This document shows positions 1,597 through 6,604 of a stretch of 6,604 bases of DNA, piece by piece. The notes beneath the pieces were generated by a model. That model saw only the letters and a list, made by a program, of their open reading frames with translations. It did no database searches and was not told where the DNA came from. Positions within the stretch are counted from its first letter, which is position 1, and every line of letters begins with the position of its first letter. Made by a program: the position numbers and the translations under genes. This DNA comes from a virus (taxonomy: Duplodnaviria; Heunggongvirae; Uroviricota; Caudoviricetes), in IMG/VR virus record IMGVR_UViG_2917849834_000003. One strand, 5' to 3'.

Positions 1597-1621
1597 TGTT
1601 TTCTCCGGTGCTGGAATGAAA

Positions 1622-1630
1622 GGGGGGGGG
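1622..1630. repeat. G9/C9 homopolymeric tract in the xis leader
   Basis: Nine consecutive G on the plus strand (1622..1630), about 26 nt upstream of the preferred xis start. In the alternative longer reading frame it would encode PPP. Confidence 0.8.
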
Positions 1631-2932: not shown

Positions 2933-3271
2933 TTATATCATTAATGTTGTTTCGTGCCAGCCTTTGGTCACCCAGCATTGTGAGTCACCATTACACGGGC
3001 ATGAATTAACAGGAACTCTCTCGCCGCACTTACCGCAACGTTTTCTGCTGATCGATTTTATACGCCAGCGCACACGTGCATCATCCTGGCGGCTCAGTAA
3101 CGCGATGTACTCACCAAACTCGTAAGGCGCACGCCTGAAGCGACGCGTGGCACAGTCACGCTCCAGCATTTCAATTTCCTGAGCATCAAGTACAAGCTCC
3201 AGCTTACGCATACCGGATGATGCTTGCTTGGCTCTCTGATCGGCTTTGCGCTCTGCTGCTGATTTAGCCAT
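2933..3271 (-). CDS. Hypothetical small protein with a possible N-terminal ribbon-helix-helix-like segment and a C-terminal Cys cluster (CGKCG...CPC)
   Basis: ATG at 3271..3269 with AGGAAA upstream. KLELVLDAQEIEMLERD looks like a beta-strand plus helix of an RHH-type DNA-binding motif (inference). The C-terminal CxxC...CxC suggests a zinc ribbon. The overlapping ORF 3094..3423 in another frame starts with TTG and is rejected. Confidence 0.5.
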   Translation of the reverse strand: MAKSAAERKADQRAKQASSGMRKLELVLDAQEIEMLERDCATRRFRRAPYEFGEYIALLSRQDDARVRWRIKSISRKRCGKCGERVPVNSCPCNGDSQCWVTKGWHETTLMI

Positions 3272-3443
3272 TCTGCTTTTCCTGCATCAGGAGAAAGACA
3301 ATCATGGCGGCGCGGATGCTTCCGGTATCTCTTTATGCGATATTCCTCCTCTATAGCACATACAAGCAGCGAACCATCAACTGGAGTGAGTGAGGAATCG
3401 ACCACAAGCAACGCCCCTTGCAATATGCCTTCGCGGTAATGGC

Positions 3444-3534
3444 TGTCACCCGCGGAACAATTTATCTGCTGGCTGTATGAAAAGCCAGCAATACAACTTT
3501 TGCTGACTTTCCACCGTTAACGCGACACAACCTT
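3444..3534. repeat. Left arm of a long imperfect inverted repeat flanking the 233-aa gene cassette
   Basis: 3501..3534 is the exact reverse complement of 4488..4521 (34 bp). 3444..3471 matches the reverse complement of 4518..4545 with one mismatch and one 1-nt indel. The left arm carries about 31 extra bp (3472..3500) between the two blocks. Confidence 0.8.
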
Positions 3535-3619
3535 TGTTCCTGAGCTTCGCGTTGCAGAGCCGGTAATCTCCGTCTCTTTAAATTAAAAAGACGGAGACTA
3601 TTAAAAACTCATTAAAACA

Positions 3620-4321
3620 TCAGGAAACAACAGATTCCCCGTAAAACGCTACAGCCTGTGCAGGCTGGGAGTCCATATCATCATGGAGATCTCTGGAGTA
3701 TGGGAGGGAGTTGACTGTCGATATAAATATCCTGTCATTTTCTAAAGTGAAAATTTCTGATTTGAGACTACCAATATCACTATGTACAGGATTAGTCCAC
3801 CCACTAAATAGTAAAAATCCCCATTCCTGAAAAAGCCCGGAATTCACTTCACGTTTTACATCATGAAACATTTCTCCCGTCAGTTCATCGAAATGGACAT
3901 TATTGATATCGCGTCGTGCCGGGACAGTCCCTTTTTTATCCTCAATCCAAAACCATGCATTGTCAAATCTGTCCGACGTTGCGGTACGAGGTTTAAAGAA
4001 GCGATGAGGTTTAATTAAATAAGATGACACAAATTTCCCTGTGGCTTTATCCTTCGCAAAAATAACAAATGTTTTACCAATGCAGCTTTCATCAATATCT
4101 TTTGAAAATGACACCACGCCGTCCTGATTTACAGTCAGCGAATTGTCTCCCGCATTGGTGGCAACACTCCAGTCCAACGTATTATTATTGACAACATCAT
4201 TGTCAACCACCATCTGAAATGTCGCACCTGGAAATAATGTTTTCGGGAATGAACCATTAGCCATGTCTTCTTTTATATCGAAAACATGGTGGCTCACTAG
4301 AACACCGGTAATTTTTGGCAT
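3620..4321 (-). CDS. Hypothetical orphan protein (233 aa), AT-rich moron flanked by inverted repeats
   Basis: ATG at 4321..4319 preceded by AAGGAG with 6-nt spacing. AT-rich composition. No signal peptide or catalytic motif recognised. The N-terminal ~90 aa has an alternating beta-strand-like pattern (FQMVVDNDVV...LTVNQDGVVSF...FVIFAKD) that could be an Ig-like beta-sandwich, which is inference only. Confidence 0.65.
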   Translation of the reverse strand: MPKITGVLVSHHVFDIKEDMANGSFPKTLFPGATFQMVVDNDVVNNNTLDWSVATNAGDNSLTVNQDGVVSFSKDIDESCIGKTFVIFAKDKATGKFVSSYLIKPHRFFKPRTATSDRFDNAWFWIEDKKGTVPARRDINNVHFDELTGEMFHDVKREVNSGLFQEWGFLLFSGWTNPVHSDIGSLKSEIFTLENDRIFISTVNSLPYSRDLHDDMDSQPAQAVAFYGESVVS

Positions 4322-4487
4322 AAAAAACTCCTTATTTGTTTAATTGAAATGCGATCAATAAATTCGATCGCCAGAGAGATATTATTACTTTTACAAGAAT
4401 AAATGTTGTTATTTGTTTATTATAAAACAATCATCACCCAGAAAAGAAAAAGATGCAGCTCGTTAACAAAAACCTTTGTGGCATATT
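4322..4487 (-). promoter_or_regulatory. AT-rich upstream region of the 233-aa gene with a candidate sigma70 -10 (TATAAT on the minus strand at about 4424..4419)
   Basis: Very AT-rich 160-bp stretch. A perfect TATAAT hexamer sits on the minus strand about 100 nt upstream of the start codon. The -35 is poor, so the promoter call is weak. Confidence 0.3.
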
Positions 4488-4545
4488 AAGGTTGTGTCGC
4501 GTTAACGGTGGAAAGTCAGCAGATAAAATTGTTCCGTGGGTGACA
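4488..4545. repeat. Right arm of the inverted repeat flanking the 233-aa gene cassette
   Basis: Reverse complement of 3444..3471 plus 3501..3534 (see left arm). The arms sit about 950 bp apart and enclose the 233-aa gene and its promoter region. Confidence 0.8.
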
Positions 4546-4593
4546 ATCCATCACCCTGAGGATGCTGATATTGCCCCTTGCGCATCATGTGGA

Positions 4594-4804
4594 TTAATTC
4601 AACGCCGGCCAGTATCGTAGCCGTTCCATGAAATAGGTGTGCAAGTTCTCCGGTTGCTCACGGGCTACCTGTTCTGCAATTACCGGTATATTCATCCGCT
4701 CTTTGTAGGCAACGCCGCTGGCGGCCAGGTCAGCGTGATAATTCAGATTCGTGCGGGTAGAAAGCGGACATGACGCCGCTACCCGCGAGCTGAAAGTGCA
4801 TCAT
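4594..4804 (-). pseudogene. Probable frameshift-disrupted small gene (about 70 codons if restored)
   Basis: The minus strand reads AAGGAG-TTACCC-ATGATG (a perfect SD with 6-nt spacing), then an ORF of only 24 codons ([24 protein letters not shown]). A second frame is open across the same region and continues to a stop at 4596..4594 (..[48 protein letters not shown]). The span is 211 nt, which is 3n+1, and the region is GC-rich and coding-like. Confidence 0.35.
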
Positions 4805-4887: not shown

Positions 4888-5136
4888 CTACTCTATTTCT
4901 TCTTCGAATGATTTTATTAGTCGGTCAATAACATCATCTGTTTCAATATCATTTCCGTCCGATTGCTTTAATACGTCTATTGATTCTGCTGCGGTAAATT
5001 CCATCGCTGTGAGAAACTCGACAATTGCACACTCAACGACATATCGTTCTTCATCTGTACGACATGAGATAAAAGAGCATTTAATTGCTGTTATTACTTT
5101 TTGTTTAAGCTCTGCAGGATAATCAGTTTTTATCAT
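4888..5136 (-). CDS. Hypothetical small acidic protein (82 aa)
   Basis: ATG at 5136..5134 with GGAG at 6-nt spacing. The product is strongly acidic, especially the C-terminus (DGNDIETDDVIDRLIKSFEEEIE). A GC hairpin overlaps the stop codon (4873..4888). No family recognised. Confidence 0.55.
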   Translation of the reverse strand: MIKTDYPAELKQKVITAIKCSFISCRTDEERYVVECAIVEFLTAMEFTAAESIDVLKQSDGNDIETDDVIDRLIKSFEEEIE

Positions 5137-5178: not shown

Positions 5179-5316
5179 AGAAGATTTCCAATAATCAGAA
5201 CAAGTCGGCTCCTGTTTAGTTACGAGCGACATTGCTCCGTGTATGCACTCGTTGGAATGAATACACAGTGCAGTGTTTATTCTGTTGTTTGCGTGAAAAT
5301 GAAACCCGCTAAAGCG

Positions 5317-5339
5317 CTGAGGAATCCCCAGTAATGGGC
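5317..5339. repeat. Putative left terminal inverted repeat of the IS10-like element
   Basis: Similarity to the IS10 terminal repeat as recalled. It cannot be confirmed against the right end, which is outside the window. Confidence 0.55.
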
Positions 5340-5410
5340 GGGTAAAAAAAGACAGGCATAGAGTTTTGTGATCTACTGATTTGTGCAACCAATTCAATGA
5401 GATCACTTCT

Positions 5411-6604
5411 ATGCCTGCTCGACAAGTATGCCAGAATTTTTTCCACGATGCGTTAGCACCGTTTCACAAATACCGACAAAATGCTTTGCTGGATGCCACC
5501 ATCGCTCTCATCAATGGCGCATCACTGACGCTGACCAGCATCGGGCGTTATTTACCCGGCCCGGCTCAGGTCAAAAATAAAATCAAACGCGTTGACCGAC
5601 TGCTCGGTAATGAATCTCTTCACCGCGATATCCCACTGATTTTCAGTAATATTATTGCCATGCTGACTAACCAGCTATCTCTTTGTGTCATCGCCGTTGA
5701 CTGGAGTGGATATCCATCTCAGGAGCATCATGTGCTCCGCGCCAGCCTGCTCTGCGATGGACGCTCGCTTCCCCTGTTAAGCTTGATAGTCCCGTCAGAA
5801 AAACAGCAGAACTCGCAGATACAAAAAAACTTCCTGGATGCTCTTGCCGAGGCTGTAAACCCTGTGGCCAGAGTCATAATAGTTACCGATGCGGGTTTCC
5901 AGAGTGCATGGTTCCGGCATATAAGGTCACTCGGATGGGATTTTATCGGTCGCGTCAGGGGAAATATCCAGATGCGGCTGGACAGCAAAGGTGAGTGCTG
6001 GTTCAGGCGTCAGGAGTTACAGGCCAGAAGCAAACCAGAATATCTGGGGACGGGTACATTTGCCCGTTCGGAATATGCCCGGTGTGATGGCCATTTTTAT
6101 TTGCATAAAAAAGAGCTGAAAGGCCGGAAGAATCGCCGTTCACGTTGCCGCATAGAGCGTAAATCCCAAATAAAGGATGGCCGTTCTTCGGCAAAAGAAC
6201 CGTGGCTTATCTTTAGCAGTACAAATGACTTTAAACCCCGGGAAATCATGAGATTGTACAGCCGTCGCATGCAAATCGAGCAGAACTTCCGGGATGAAAA
6301 AAGCGAGCGCTTCGGGTTCGCTCTGCGTGCCAGTTACAGTCGTTCCGTGGGAAGAATGCTGGTACTGAGCCTACTGGCGACGCTGAGTACAATTGTACTG
6401 TGGCTTATTGGCTATCATGCTGAAAACAAAGGATTACATCTGAGATATCAGGCCAACAGCATTAAAACACGGCGGGTAATCTCGTATCTGACATTAGCGG
6501 AGAATGTCTTACGACACTCCCCGCTAATTTTAAGGCGAACAGTGCTGAGCACGGTTCTTAATCATCTCGCCAAAACCTACCAGAATATGGTGTTGGTTTA
6601 TTAG
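5411..6604 (+). CDS. IS4-family (IS10-like) DDE transposase
   Basis: Conserved blocks align by eye to the IS10 transposase: LTLTSIGRYLP..IKRVDRLLGN, VDWSG (first Asp), VLRASLLCDGRS, IVTDAGF (second Asp), GWDFIGRVRGN, KGRKNRRS, SAKEPWLIF, YSRRMQIEQNFRDEKS (the Y-R-E-K signature with the catalytic Glu). The ORF track starts at a TTG at 5381; the first ATG at 5411 gives an N-terminal length matching IS10, so I take 5411 as the start. Confidence 0.85.
   Translation: MPARQVCQNFFHDALAPFHKYRQNALLDATIALINGASLTLTSIGRYLPGPAQVKNKIKRVDRLLGNESLHRDIPLIFSNIIAMLTNQLSLCVIAVDWSGYPSQEHHVLRASLLCDGRSLPLLSLIVPSEKQQNSQIQKNFLDALAEAVNPVARVIIVTDAGFQSAWFRHIRSLGWDFIGRVRGNIQMRLDSKGECWFRRQELQARSKPEYLGTGTFARSEYARCDGHFYLHKKELKGRKNRRSRCRIERKSQIKDGRSSAKEPWLIFSSTNDFKPREIMRLYSRRMQIEQNFRDEKSERFGFALRASYSRSVGRMLVLSLLATLSTIVLWLIGYHAENKGLHLRYQANSIKTRRVISYLTLAENVLRHSPLILRRTVLSTVLNHLAKTYQNMVLVY

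What the first reader, a model, noticed from the sequence alone, without database searches (positions are those of the whole stretch)
3444..4545. A 233-aa orphan gene cassette bracketed by long imperfect inverted repeats
Two arms (3444..3534 and 4488..4545) are reverse complements of each other: a 34-bp perfect block plus a ~27-bp block with one mismatch and one indel. They enclose about 950 bp holding the AT-rich 233-aa gene and its promoter region. The left arm carries an extra ~31-bp insert between the two blocks. Ordinary phage morons are bounded by a promoter and a terminator, not by 60-bp inverted repeats. This geometry fits an invertible or excisable segment, a MITE-like or other non-autonomous mobile cassette carrying a passenger gene, or an insertion into the loop of a pre-existing large palindrome. 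No invertase or transposase sits next to it in the window.
Basis: seen in the sequence. Interest (0 to 1): 0.72.

Follow-up and report, generated by a model that had tools for sequence, protein, structure and literature searches.

The report
Gene flanked by leftover IS6 ends
The long inverted repeats around this prophage gene are the leftover tail ends of two copies of an IS6-family insertion sequence, and related genomes carry the enclosed gene in both orientations, so it is a decayed transposon relic that recombination occasionally flips, not a new kind of switch.

Summary
Arms 3444-3534 and 4488-4545 are reverse complements: a 34-bp perfect block, plus an outer block with one mismatch and one indel. 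The left arm has 34 extra bases.

The arms are not a new repeat type. Each is the 3' end of an IS6-family insertion sequence. It holds the last transposase codons, the stop codon, a small hairpin and the right terminal inverted repeat (GGTTGTGTCGCGTTAACG). The IS tips point inward at the cassette. The right-hand remnant continues past the repeat to about 4615.

The unit sits between fragments of the phage-P1-type genes hot and humD. In P1-like plasmids these two genes are 299 bp apart, and that is the empty site.

The cargo is a 233-aa protein resembling invasin domains D4-D5. It is found only in Escherichia.

Of 11 related loci, 9 have the window's orientation and 2 have the cassette flipped. 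The two flipped loci lie on different cassette lineages. The segment therefore does invert, most likely by short-homology recombination between the arms. No invertase gene or hix-like site is present.

It is not a MITE and not an insertion into a palindrome. Verdict: a decayed, inverted IS6-flanked cargo unit. This is a known kind of structure, of modest interest.

The parts
3309..3453 (-). Internal fragment of a humD (UmuD'-like, phage P1 type) gene. It is truncated at both ends, and its upstream end is fused to the IS remnant at 3444-3453.
   Evidence: 90% identical to humD of a P1-like E. coli plasmid (L002 1501-1645). The translation GDSHYREGILQGALLVVDSSLTPVDGSLLVCAIEEEYRIKRYRKHPRRH matches HumD residues about 33-80. 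Microhomology at the junction: humD GGTAATGGCTGTCACC against IS GGTGATGGATTGTCACC.
3444..3532 (+). Left IS6-family right-end remnant (long form). It holds the last roughly 12 transposase codons, the stop codon TGA at 3478-3480, the hairpin TGCTGGCT/AGCCAGCA (3467-3490), and the right terminal inverted repeat 3514-3532. The IS tip (CC on this strand) is at 3531-3532 and faces the cassette.
   Evidence: 79% identical to the last 90 bp of an ISEas1-family IS6 element (L027 2501-2590), spanning the end of its transposase CDS and its terminal repeat. The ISEas1 left-end repeat GGTTCTGTCGCATTAAG matches GGTTGTGTCGCGTTAACG here. The hairpin folds in every arm variant.
3467..3500 (.). The 34-bp segment present in the left arm and missing from the right arm. 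Its placement is ambiguous by 5 bp because of the flanking TGCTG direct repeats. It contains the transposase stop codon, the hairpin, and a LexA-box look-alike, CTGTATGAAAAGCCAG (3473-3488).
   Evidence: Alignments. Loci L007, L009 and L011 carry the long form on the hot side too, so the short arm is a deletion derivative. The LexA-like match comes (1 mismatch to CTGT-N8-ACAG).
3533..3567 (.). A 35-bp fragment of a plasmid thermonuclease-family gene, directly abutting the IS tip.
   Evidence: 33/35 identity to thermonuclease-family CDS on many E. coli plasmids, the bulk of the 477 matching records.
3564..3600 (.). Near-perfect hairpin just downstream of the 233-aa ORF. It is probably that gene's terminator, but it is not a canonical one because no T-run follows the stem.
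   Evidence: Inverted repeat I3 (18-nt arms, 89% complementary, 1-nt gap).
3620..4321 (-). Cargo gene: a 233-aa protein with an invasin D4 (Ig-like) domain and a C-terminal domain that is poorly modelled but aligns to invasin. I saw no N-terminal signal peptide by eye.
   Evidence: ORF. Pfam PF21764 Invasin_D4, E 1.4e-7. Foldseek top hit is invasin 1CWV, E 1.7e-6, from a model with mean pLDDT 51.7: the N-terminal half is confident and residues 107-233 score below 50. All homologues that carry a source name are from Escherichia.
4322..4487 (-). AT-rich upstream (promoter) region of the cargo gene. Positions 4322-4433 are homologous to the upstream region of the 70%-identical homologue in L017. 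Positions 4434-4487 are of unknown origin.
   Evidence: blastn of the cassette against L017/L019 gives 79% identity over window 3604-4433. No match in E. coli genomes.
4490..4615 (-). Right IS6-family right-end remnant (short form, lacking the 34 bp). The terminal repeat is at 4490-4508, with the tip GG at 4490-4491 facing the cassette. The remnant continues about 70 bp beyond the repeat arm (which ends at 4545), encoding the last roughly 32 transposase residues.
   Evidence: The - strand translation [32 protein letters not shown] is 27/33 identical to the ISEas1 transposase C-terminus. DNA alignment. The long-form equivalent from L007 matches the 3' ends of IS6-family transposase genes in 168 plasmids at 75-82%.
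4616..4731 (-). Fragment of a hot gene (DNA polymerase III theta homologue, phage P1 type). Its 3' end is replaced by the IS remnant.
   Evidence: 89.7% identical to L002 1944-2059 inside the annotated theta CDS. The called 50-aa gene carries PF06440 in L013. Junction microhomology is shown.

Best explanation
The unit is the decayed remains of a cargo segment bracketed by two inverted copies of an IS6-family insertion sequence.

Shown:
- Each arm is the last roughly 90 bp of such an IS: the end of the transposase gene, the stop codon, a hairpin and the right terminal inverted repeat.
- Both IS tips abut the cargo, and both IS bodies point outward.
- Both IS copies have lost nearly all of their length. 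The left is cut 37 bp before the transposase stop and the right about 100 bp before it. Each cut is fused at a few bases of microhomology to a P1-type gene: humD on the left, hot on the right.
- The 'inverted repeat' is therefore just the part the two unequal remnants share.
- The unit replaces 299 bp of a hot-humD module.

Inferred:
- The inverted pair arose by intramolecular replicative transposition in trans, or by two separate insertions. This happened on a plasmid or P1-like phage-plasmid, as suggested by the 35-bp plasmid nuclease fragment at one tip.
- The block then entered the early-left region of a lambdoid prophage by illegitimate recombination.

Current behaviour:
- The remnants have no transposase and only inward-facing tips, so the unit cannot transpose as a MITE or compound transposon.
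- The arms (34-58 bp of identity) act as substrates for occasional homologous recombination, which flips the 953-bp segment. RecA could do this, as could the Exo/RecT/Gam module encoded by intact relatives of this prophage.
- Flipping puts the cargo gene either co-directional with the leftward early operon (the window's state) or antisense to it. The gene keeps its own promoter region either way.
For: IS6 identity of the arms:
- DNA matches to ISEas1-family and other IS6 elements.
- Transposase C-terminus 27/33 identical.
- The terminal repeat matches both ends of ISEas1.
- The family's GG tip and TGT motif are present, as described in the IS6 review PMC7986276.

Geometry:
- The same review states that functional IS6 compound transposons always have direct copies. 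It also states that intramolecular transposition in trans leaves a segment bracketed by inverted copies.

Empty site and origin:
- P1-like hot-humD matches both flanks in the same order and orientation.
- This module is a hallmark of P1-family phages.
- Junction microhomologies are visible.

Inversion:
- L004 has window 3444-4555 reversed between unreversed flanks.
- L018 joins the terminator side of the cassette to the hot flank.
- The two flipped loci fall in different cassette lineages.

No dedicated recombinase:
- The gene list for 6 kb on either side of the cassette in the source genome shows none.
- There is no hix-like site.

Recombination functions in relatives:
- YqaJ exonuclease, RecT and Gam lie 3-5 kb from the cassette in L010.

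Independence of the cargo from the arms:
- Homologues of the cargo elsewhere lack the arms.
Against: - No full-length cognate IS (more than 90% identical to the arms) was found in any collection searched, so the donor structure is inferred.
- The crossover point cannot be placed. In L004 the short arm sits on the humD side together with the promoter end of the cassette. A single crossover in the 34-bp block from any sampled parent does not predict this, so extra gene conversion or recombination steps must be assumed.
- 34-58 bp is near the lower limit for efficient RecA recombination, yet two flips appear among only 11 haplotypes.
- L018 is a metagenome contig with a single flank.
- No read-level data were available to rule out within-culture switching.
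Confidence: 0.8

Rival explanations
1. A programmed invertible switch (phase variation). A site-specific recombinase acts on the arms to turn the cargo gene or its neighbours on and off.
For: Both orientations occur in nature, and by parsimony the flip happened at least twice. In both flipped loci the whole short arm stays with the promoter end of the cassette. This would fit crossovers at the outer arm boundary, where only about 8 bp of identity exist. Contig L018 starts exactly at the outer base of an arm, as a graph branch would.
Against: No invertase or Fim-type recombinase gene is in the window or in 6 kb on either side of the cassette in the source genome. No hix/gix-like site was found (the consensus I used is from memory). 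The arms are ordinary IS6 ends. The cassette carries the whole gene with its own promoter region, so flipping need not change expression. The arm haplotypes are equally explained by an inner-block crossover plus gene conversion.
Confidence: 0.05
2. Transposase-driven inversion. A resident full-length IS6-family element supplies transposase in trans. This recombines the two right ends conservatively, as in IS26 targeted conservative cointegration, and so flips the segment without RecA.
For: Both arms keep an intact right terminal repeat. The IS6 review describes a RecA-independent, transposase-dependent reaction between two IS copies. In both flipped loci the arm on the hot flank resembles arm types seen on hot flanks elsewhere. 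This fits an exchange at or near the tips.
Against: No cognate IS was found. According to the review, the known reaction needs active transposase in both participating IS copies and is sensitive to mismatches. Here both copies lack transposase. The humD-side arm of L004 does not fit this model.
Confidence: 0.07
3. A MITE-like non-autonomous transposon that carries the gene as a passenger.
For: The arms are long, IS-derived inverted repeats around a single foreign gene.
Against: The IS tips are at the inner ends of the arms, not the outer ends. The outer ends are deletion junctions of unequal depth into the IS (3444 against about 4615). There is no direct target duplication: the flanks read GGTAATGGC and ATCCATCAC. 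All 11 copies sit at the same hot-humD site, and the arm 24-mer occurs nowhere else in the viral, GTDB or JGI metagenome scans.
Confidence: 0.02
4. The flipped orientation is an assembly artefact. The segment is fixed in one orientation.
For: Inverted repeats can mislead assemblers. Short contigs L014 and L018 break at or near the arms.
Against: The perfect block is only 34 bp, which is shorter than sequencing reads and shorter than the k=119 used for L018. Two unrelated assemblies show the flipped junction. L004 has its own arm and cassette SNP pattern rather than a simple swap of a sampled genome.
Confidence: 0.06

Closest known systems
IS6-family insertion sequences (ISEas1 subgroup; IS26, IS257 and IS6100 are better-known members)
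   Same: The arms share the family's right end: transposase C-terminus (27/33 aa to ISEas1), the stop codon region, and a terminal repeat with a GG tip and TGT motif (GGTTGTGTCGCGTTAACG against ISEas1 GGTTCTGTCGCATTAA).
   Different: Only the last 89 and about 126 bp of a roughly 800-bp element survive. There is no transposase, no left end and no 8-bp target duplication. Identity to any catalogued IS is at most about 82%.
Product of IS26/IS6 intramolecular replicative transposition in trans (a segment bracketed by inverted IS copies)
   Same: Two copies in inverted orientation, with the same IS end facing the enclosed segment on both sides.
   Different: The diagnostic inverted 8-bp target duplication lies at the outer IS ends, which are deleted here, so this origin cannot be proven. 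Two independent insertions would look the same.
IS6 pseudo-compound transposons (e.g. Tn4352, Tn6023, Tn610)
   Same: A passenger gene lies between two IS6-family copies.
   Different: In functional examples the copies are always direct repeats (PMC7986276). Here they are inverted and truncated, so the unit cannot move by that pathway.
IS26-flanked cargo in P1-like phage-plasmids such as RCS47
   Same: A P1-type backbone (hot, humD) hosts cargo delivered by an IS6-family element. RCS47 carries the intact hot-humD module.
   Different: That RCS47 carries IS26-flanked blaSHV-2 is from my own knowledge and was not checked here. In the window the block now sits in a lambdoid prophage remnant and the IS copies are vestigial.
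Phage invertible segments (Mu G, P1 C, e14 P) and Hin/Fim switches
   Same: A roughly 1-kb or larger segment bounded by inverted repeats of tens of bp, found in both orientations. Mu G is bounded by 34-bp repeats (from my own knowledge).
   Different: Those have an adjacent serine invertase (Gin, Cin, Pin, Hin) or tyrosine recombinase (FimB/E) and conserved crossover sites, and flipping swaps gene ends or a promoter. None of these features is present here.
Yersinia invasin domains D4-D5 (PDB 1CWV)
   Same: The cargo protein matches Pfam Invasin_D4, and its model's best structural match is invasin.
   Different: It is a stand-alone 233-aa protein with no beta-barrel anchor. I saw no signal peptide by eye. 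The C-terminal half is not confidently modelled, and no function has been tested.

Membership tests
IS6-family insertion sequence (arms as remnants of one) | Short (15-20 bp) terminal inverted repeat with a GG tip and a conserved cTGTt motif | tested here: met
   The inner end of each arm reads GGTTGTGTCGCGTTAACG from the tip. ISEas1 has GGTTCTGTCGCATTAA at both of its ends. The family motif is as described in PMC7986276. The 'caaa' motif is replaced, as it is in ISEas1.
IS6-family insertion sequence (arms as remnants of one) | Sequence relatedness of the transposase | tested here: met
   The right remnant encodes 33 residues that are 82% identical to the C-terminus of the ISEas1 transposase. 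DNA matches to the 3' ends of IS6 transposase genes were found in 168 plasmids.
IS6-family insertion sequence (intact, autonomous element) | An element of about 700-890 bp with one transposase ORF spanning almost all of it, and both ends present with tips outward | tested here: not met
   Only 89 bp (left) and about 126 bp (right) remain. There is no DDE domain and no left end. These are remnants, not IS copies.
IS6-family insertion sequence (intact, autonomous element) | 8-bp direct target duplication | not testable with these tools
   The outer IS ends, where the duplication would lie, are deleted. The 8 bp next to the two inner tips (TTTGTTCC and TTAATATG) are unrelated.
IS6 pseudo-compound transposon | Flanking IS copies in direct orientation | tested here: not met
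   The remnants are inverted. The review states that functional IS6 compound transposons always have direct repeats.
MITE (miniature inverted-repeat transposable element) | Both IS ends with tips at the outer extremities, flanked by a target-site duplication, present at multiple sites | tested here: not met
   The tips face inward, the outer boundaries are unequal deletion junctions, and there is no duplication. All 11 copies sit at the same hot-humD site.
Serine-invertase or Fim-type invertible DNA switch | A cognate recombinase gene adjacent to, or within, the invertible segment | tested here: not met
   No such gene appears among the window ORFs or Pfam scans, or within 6 kb on either side of the cassette in the source genome. 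The only recombinases are the phage Int/Xis pair and an IS4-family transposase.
Serine-invertase or Fim-type invertible DNA switch | Conserved crossover sites (hix/gix/cix-like 26-bp sites) at the repeat boundaries | tested here: not met
   0 matches to a hix-family consensus with up to 3 mismatches. The consensus was written from memory, so this is a weak test.
Serine-invertase or Fim-type invertible DNA switch | Both orientations present within one clonal population | not testable with these tools
   No reads were available. Both orientations are seen only between genomes.
LexA-regulated (SOS) promoter in the arm | A CTGT-N8-ACAG box overlapping a promoter that drives a gene | tested here: inconclusive
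   The box-like sequence at 3473-3488 has 1 mismatch and is perfect in L004 and L007. However, it lies on the transposase stop codon and hairpin of the IS, and no convincing promoter surrounds it. I judge it a look-alike.

The most novel reading that the evidence does not exclude
The vestigial IS6 right ends might still be live recombination sites. In that reading, a resident IS6-family transposase, or another unidentified site-specific activity, would flip the cassette at useful frequency. Two dead IS ends would then serve as a trans-driven orientation switch for an invasin-like gene, whose relatives sit directly upstream of Scabin-like ADP-ribosyltransferase toxin genes.
Probability: 0.06. 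Interest if true: 0.6.

Novelty: new member of a known kind. Interest (0 to 1): 0.3.

Why it matters
It shows how a prophage accessory gene (a 'moron') can arrive. The cargo came in on an IS6-family structure, probably by way of a plasmid or a P1-like phage-plasmid, and the IS copies then decayed to short inverted stubs. Those stubs still promote occasional inversion.

It is also a useful caution. Long inverted repeats around a lone gene can look like a switch or a MITE, yet turn out to be inside-out IS relics. The orientation of the IS tips is what tells them apart.

The cargo family itself may deserve separate study. It is a stand-alone invasin D4-D5-like protein restricted to Escherichia, and in some genomes it is paired with a Scabin-like toxin gene.

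Tried and rejected
1. SOS-box idea. The extra 34 bp contain CTGTATGAAAAGCCAG, which is perfect CTGT-N8-ACAG in L004 and L007. I considered a duplicated LexA-regulated humD promoter. I rejected it because the sequence is the stop codon and hairpin of the IS transposase gene, and related IS copies have a hairpin there without a LexA box.

2. Arms as diverged humD 5' coding sequence. This came from eye alignments to UmuD and HumD. I dropped it once the IS6 match was found.

3. Inverted repeat extending beyond the arms. The two outer flanks are no more alike than shuffled sequence (score 7 against a mean of 7.1). The right flank is IS sequence and the left flank is humD.

4. Hin/Gin-type crossover site: none found.

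5. Rfam: no family matched.

6. PADLOC and PHROGs for the cargo protein: no hit.

7. Arms around distant or 70%-identical homologues of the cargo: absent.

8. Metagenome scan for the arm 24-mer: 0 hits. The GTDB scan gave only 2 Escherichia genomes. The arm has no match in the phage collection in either mode.

10. AlphaFold model. The C-terminal half scores below pLDDT 50, so no fold claim is made for it.

11. Placing the crossover from arm SNPs. Both an outer-edge crossover and an inner-block crossover need one parent type that was not sampled. This stays unresolved.

Full report
**Setting.** The window is the left end of a lambdoid prophage. It holds an integrase (1-1305, - strand), an excisionase-like gene (1351-1644), several small early-left genes, an anti-restriction gene (4888-5136) and an IS4-family transposase (5381-6604). 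The exact cargo protein located the source: contig PDIA01000056.1 of assembly GCA_004745155.1. There the prophage is only a remnant of about 5 kb, lying between fliE and that IS4-family element, with host genes beyond.

**Checking the observation.** The repeat finder and a direct alignment confirm the arms.
- 3501-3534 and 4488-4521 are a perfect 34-bp inverted repeat.
- The outer blocks differ by one G/A mismatch and one T indel.
- The left arm carries 34 further bases.
- Nothing else in the window comes close to this repeat.

**What the arms are.** A sensitive DNA search of 3440-3620 against complete E. coli genomes matched 3444-3532 at 79% to the last 90 bp of an ISEas1-family IS6 element on plasmid pKPC-bca9. 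That stretch covers the end of its transposase CDS and its right terminal repeat. Further evidence:
- The multiple alignment shows the homology running up to the IS tip.
- ISEas1 carries GGTTCTGTCGCATTAA at both ends. The arms read GGTTGTGTCGCGTTAACG from their inner ends.
- The IS6 review gives a GG tip and a TGT motif as family marks (PMC7986276).
- On the right side the homology continues outward past the repeat. The - strand of about 4612-4514 translates to [32 protein letters not shown], which is 27/33 identical to the ISEas1 transposase C-terminus.
- The long-form right remnant from locus L007 matches the 3' ends of IS6-family transposase genes in 168 plasmids of Yersinia, Serratia, Klebsiella and other genera, at 75-82%.

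The two arms are therefore right-end stubs of two inverted IS6-family copies. Their tips face the cassette and their bodies point away. The inverted repeat ends at 3444/4545 only because the left stub is cut there.

**The 34 extra bases.** Loci L007, L009 and L011 have the long form on the hot side as well. The window's right arm has therefore lost 34 bp between TGCTG direct repeats. The lost piece holds the transposase stop codon and a small hairpin, which folds in every variant. Its resemblance to a LexA box is best read as a by-product of that hairpin.

**Flanks and empty site.**
- Window 3309-3453 is 90% identical to an internal part of humD of a P1-like plasmid. Window 4616-4731 is 90% identical to part of the adjacent hot (theta) gene.
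- In that plasmid the two matches have the same order and orientation and lie 299 bp apart.
- The hot-humD pair is a hallmark of P1-family phages. It was not found intact in any lambdoid phage.
- Both junctions between IS stub and phage gene show a few bases of microhomology. This is the signature of illegitimate recombination or deletion.
- Phage Chlobot shares the humD fragment up to 3414 and then carries a different gene. This spot therefore exchanges accessory genes.

**The cassette.** Between the tips (3533-4489) lie, in order:
- a 35-bp piece of a plasmid thermonuclease gene;
- a hairpin;
- the 233-aa gene;
- its AT-rich upstream region.

The core 3604-4433 is 79% identical to loci where a 70%-identical homologue sits directly upstream of a Scabin-like ADP-ribosyltransferase gene and next to a tyrosine recombinase. 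Those loci have no IS6 arms. More distant homologues (about 42% identity) are chromosomal and also lack arms.

The protein matches Pfam Invasin_D4. Its model's best structural match is invasin 1CWV, although only the N-terminal Ig-like half is confidently modelled. It has no PADLOC or PHROG match.

**Orientation polymorphism.** An exact arm 24-mer found the unit in 7 IMG/VR contigs and 2 GTDB Escherichia genomes, and in no JGI metagenome contig. The cargo protein itself led to the source contig and to two short contigs, L014 and L018.
- Nine loci have the window's arrangement: hot flank next to the promoter side, humD flank next to the terminator side. L011 shows one junction only. L014 carries no flank, so it was not scored.
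- L004 has window 3444-4555 reversed between unreversed flanks.
- L018, a metagenome contig, joins the terminator side through a short arm to the hot flank.
- Cassette SNPs place L004 inside the main group (8-13 differences). L018 is nearest the window (30 differences, against 35-40 to the others). Parsimony therefore needs at least two flips, with the usual caveat about recombination.

**Where the exchange occurs.** This is unresolved. In both flipped loci the arm on the hot flank resembles hot-flank arm types seen elsewhere, which fits an exchange in the 34-bp inner block or at the tips. The short arm stays with the promoter side, which fits an exchange at the outer edge. Either reading needs a parent that was not sampled, or later gene conversion.

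**Mechanism.**
- The IS6 review states that functional IS6 compound transposons always have direct copies. It also states that intramolecular replicative transposition in trans leaves a segment bracketed by inverted copies.
- The structure here fits the second case, or two separate insertions, followed by loss of the outer parts of both copies.
- With no transposase and only inward-facing tips, the unit cannot move as a MITE or a compound transposon.
- The simplest cause of the flips is homologous recombination across 34-58 bp of identity.
- Intact relatives of this prophage encode a YqaJ-type exonuclease, a RecT-family annealing protein and Gam within 3-5 kb of the cassette. Lambda Red-type systems are known to use homologies of this length; this is established knowledge and was not tested here.
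- No invertase gene or hix-like site is present.
- A transposase-dependent conservative exchange at the surviving tips cannot be excluded, but it has no positive support.

**Verdict.** The arms, however, are inside-out IS6 relics, not a MITE, a switch or a split palindrome. This is a new example of a known kind of structure and is of modest interest. The cargo protein family is the more open question.

Noticed in passing
window 5302-6604: An IS4-family (IS10-like) element with a 407-aa DDE transposase ORF (5381-6604) cuts the prophage off just past cIII. In the source genome, host genes follow directly, so the prophage is a remnant of about 5 kb next to fliE. The same IS is 98.7% identical on E. 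coli cattle plasmids.
   Followed up: partly
L017 5001-7034; L019 299-2335: Homologues of the cargo protein at 69-70% identity sit directly upstream of a gene of about 424 aa with a Scabin-like ADP-ribosyltransferase domain. In L017 a 329-aa tyrosine recombinase also lies alongside. This may be a two-gene toxin-related module. The window's copy has lost the partner gene.
   Followed up: partly
window 3533-3567: A 35-bp fragment (33/35 identical) of a thermonuclease-family gene common on E. coli plasmids lies directly against the left IS tip. This hints that the IS once sat in a plasmid nuclease gene.
   Followed up: partly
window 3467-3500, and arms of L004, L007, L009, L011: The hairpin region of the arms has five different alleles across loci, while the adjacent 49 bp never vary. 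Each allele still folds. Two alleles are perfect CTGT-N8-ACAG LexA-box look-alikes.
   Followed up: partly
L018 position 1: The metagenome contig (assembled at k=119) begins exactly at the outermost base of an arm. This is what an assembly-graph branch would produce if two different flanks adjoin that arm in the sample, possibly because both orientations are present. It could also be chance at low coverage.
   Followed up: no
L001 5207-5971 (phage Chlobot), against window 3414 onward: Chlobot shares the truncated humD fragment and downstream genes at 97% identity. It diverges at window 3414 and carries an unrelated 204-aa gene with no Pfam match where the window has the IS-flanked cassette. 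The position is a hot spot for exchange of accessory genes.
   Followed up: partly
window 1621-1629: A run of nine G lies inside the 5' extension of the excisionase-like ORF (1351-1644, - strand). The Pfam match starts at residue 23, so the true start is probably the downstream ATG. The homopolymer could be prone to slippage.
   Followed up: no
window 3094-3423 against 2933-3271, - strand: The reading frame of the humD fragment runs on for 109 codons across the start of the 112-aa regulator-like gene (phrog_536), in another frame. Chlobot annotates the equivalent as a 'UmuD-like protein'. It is most likely a non-functional fusion ORF.
   Followed up: no
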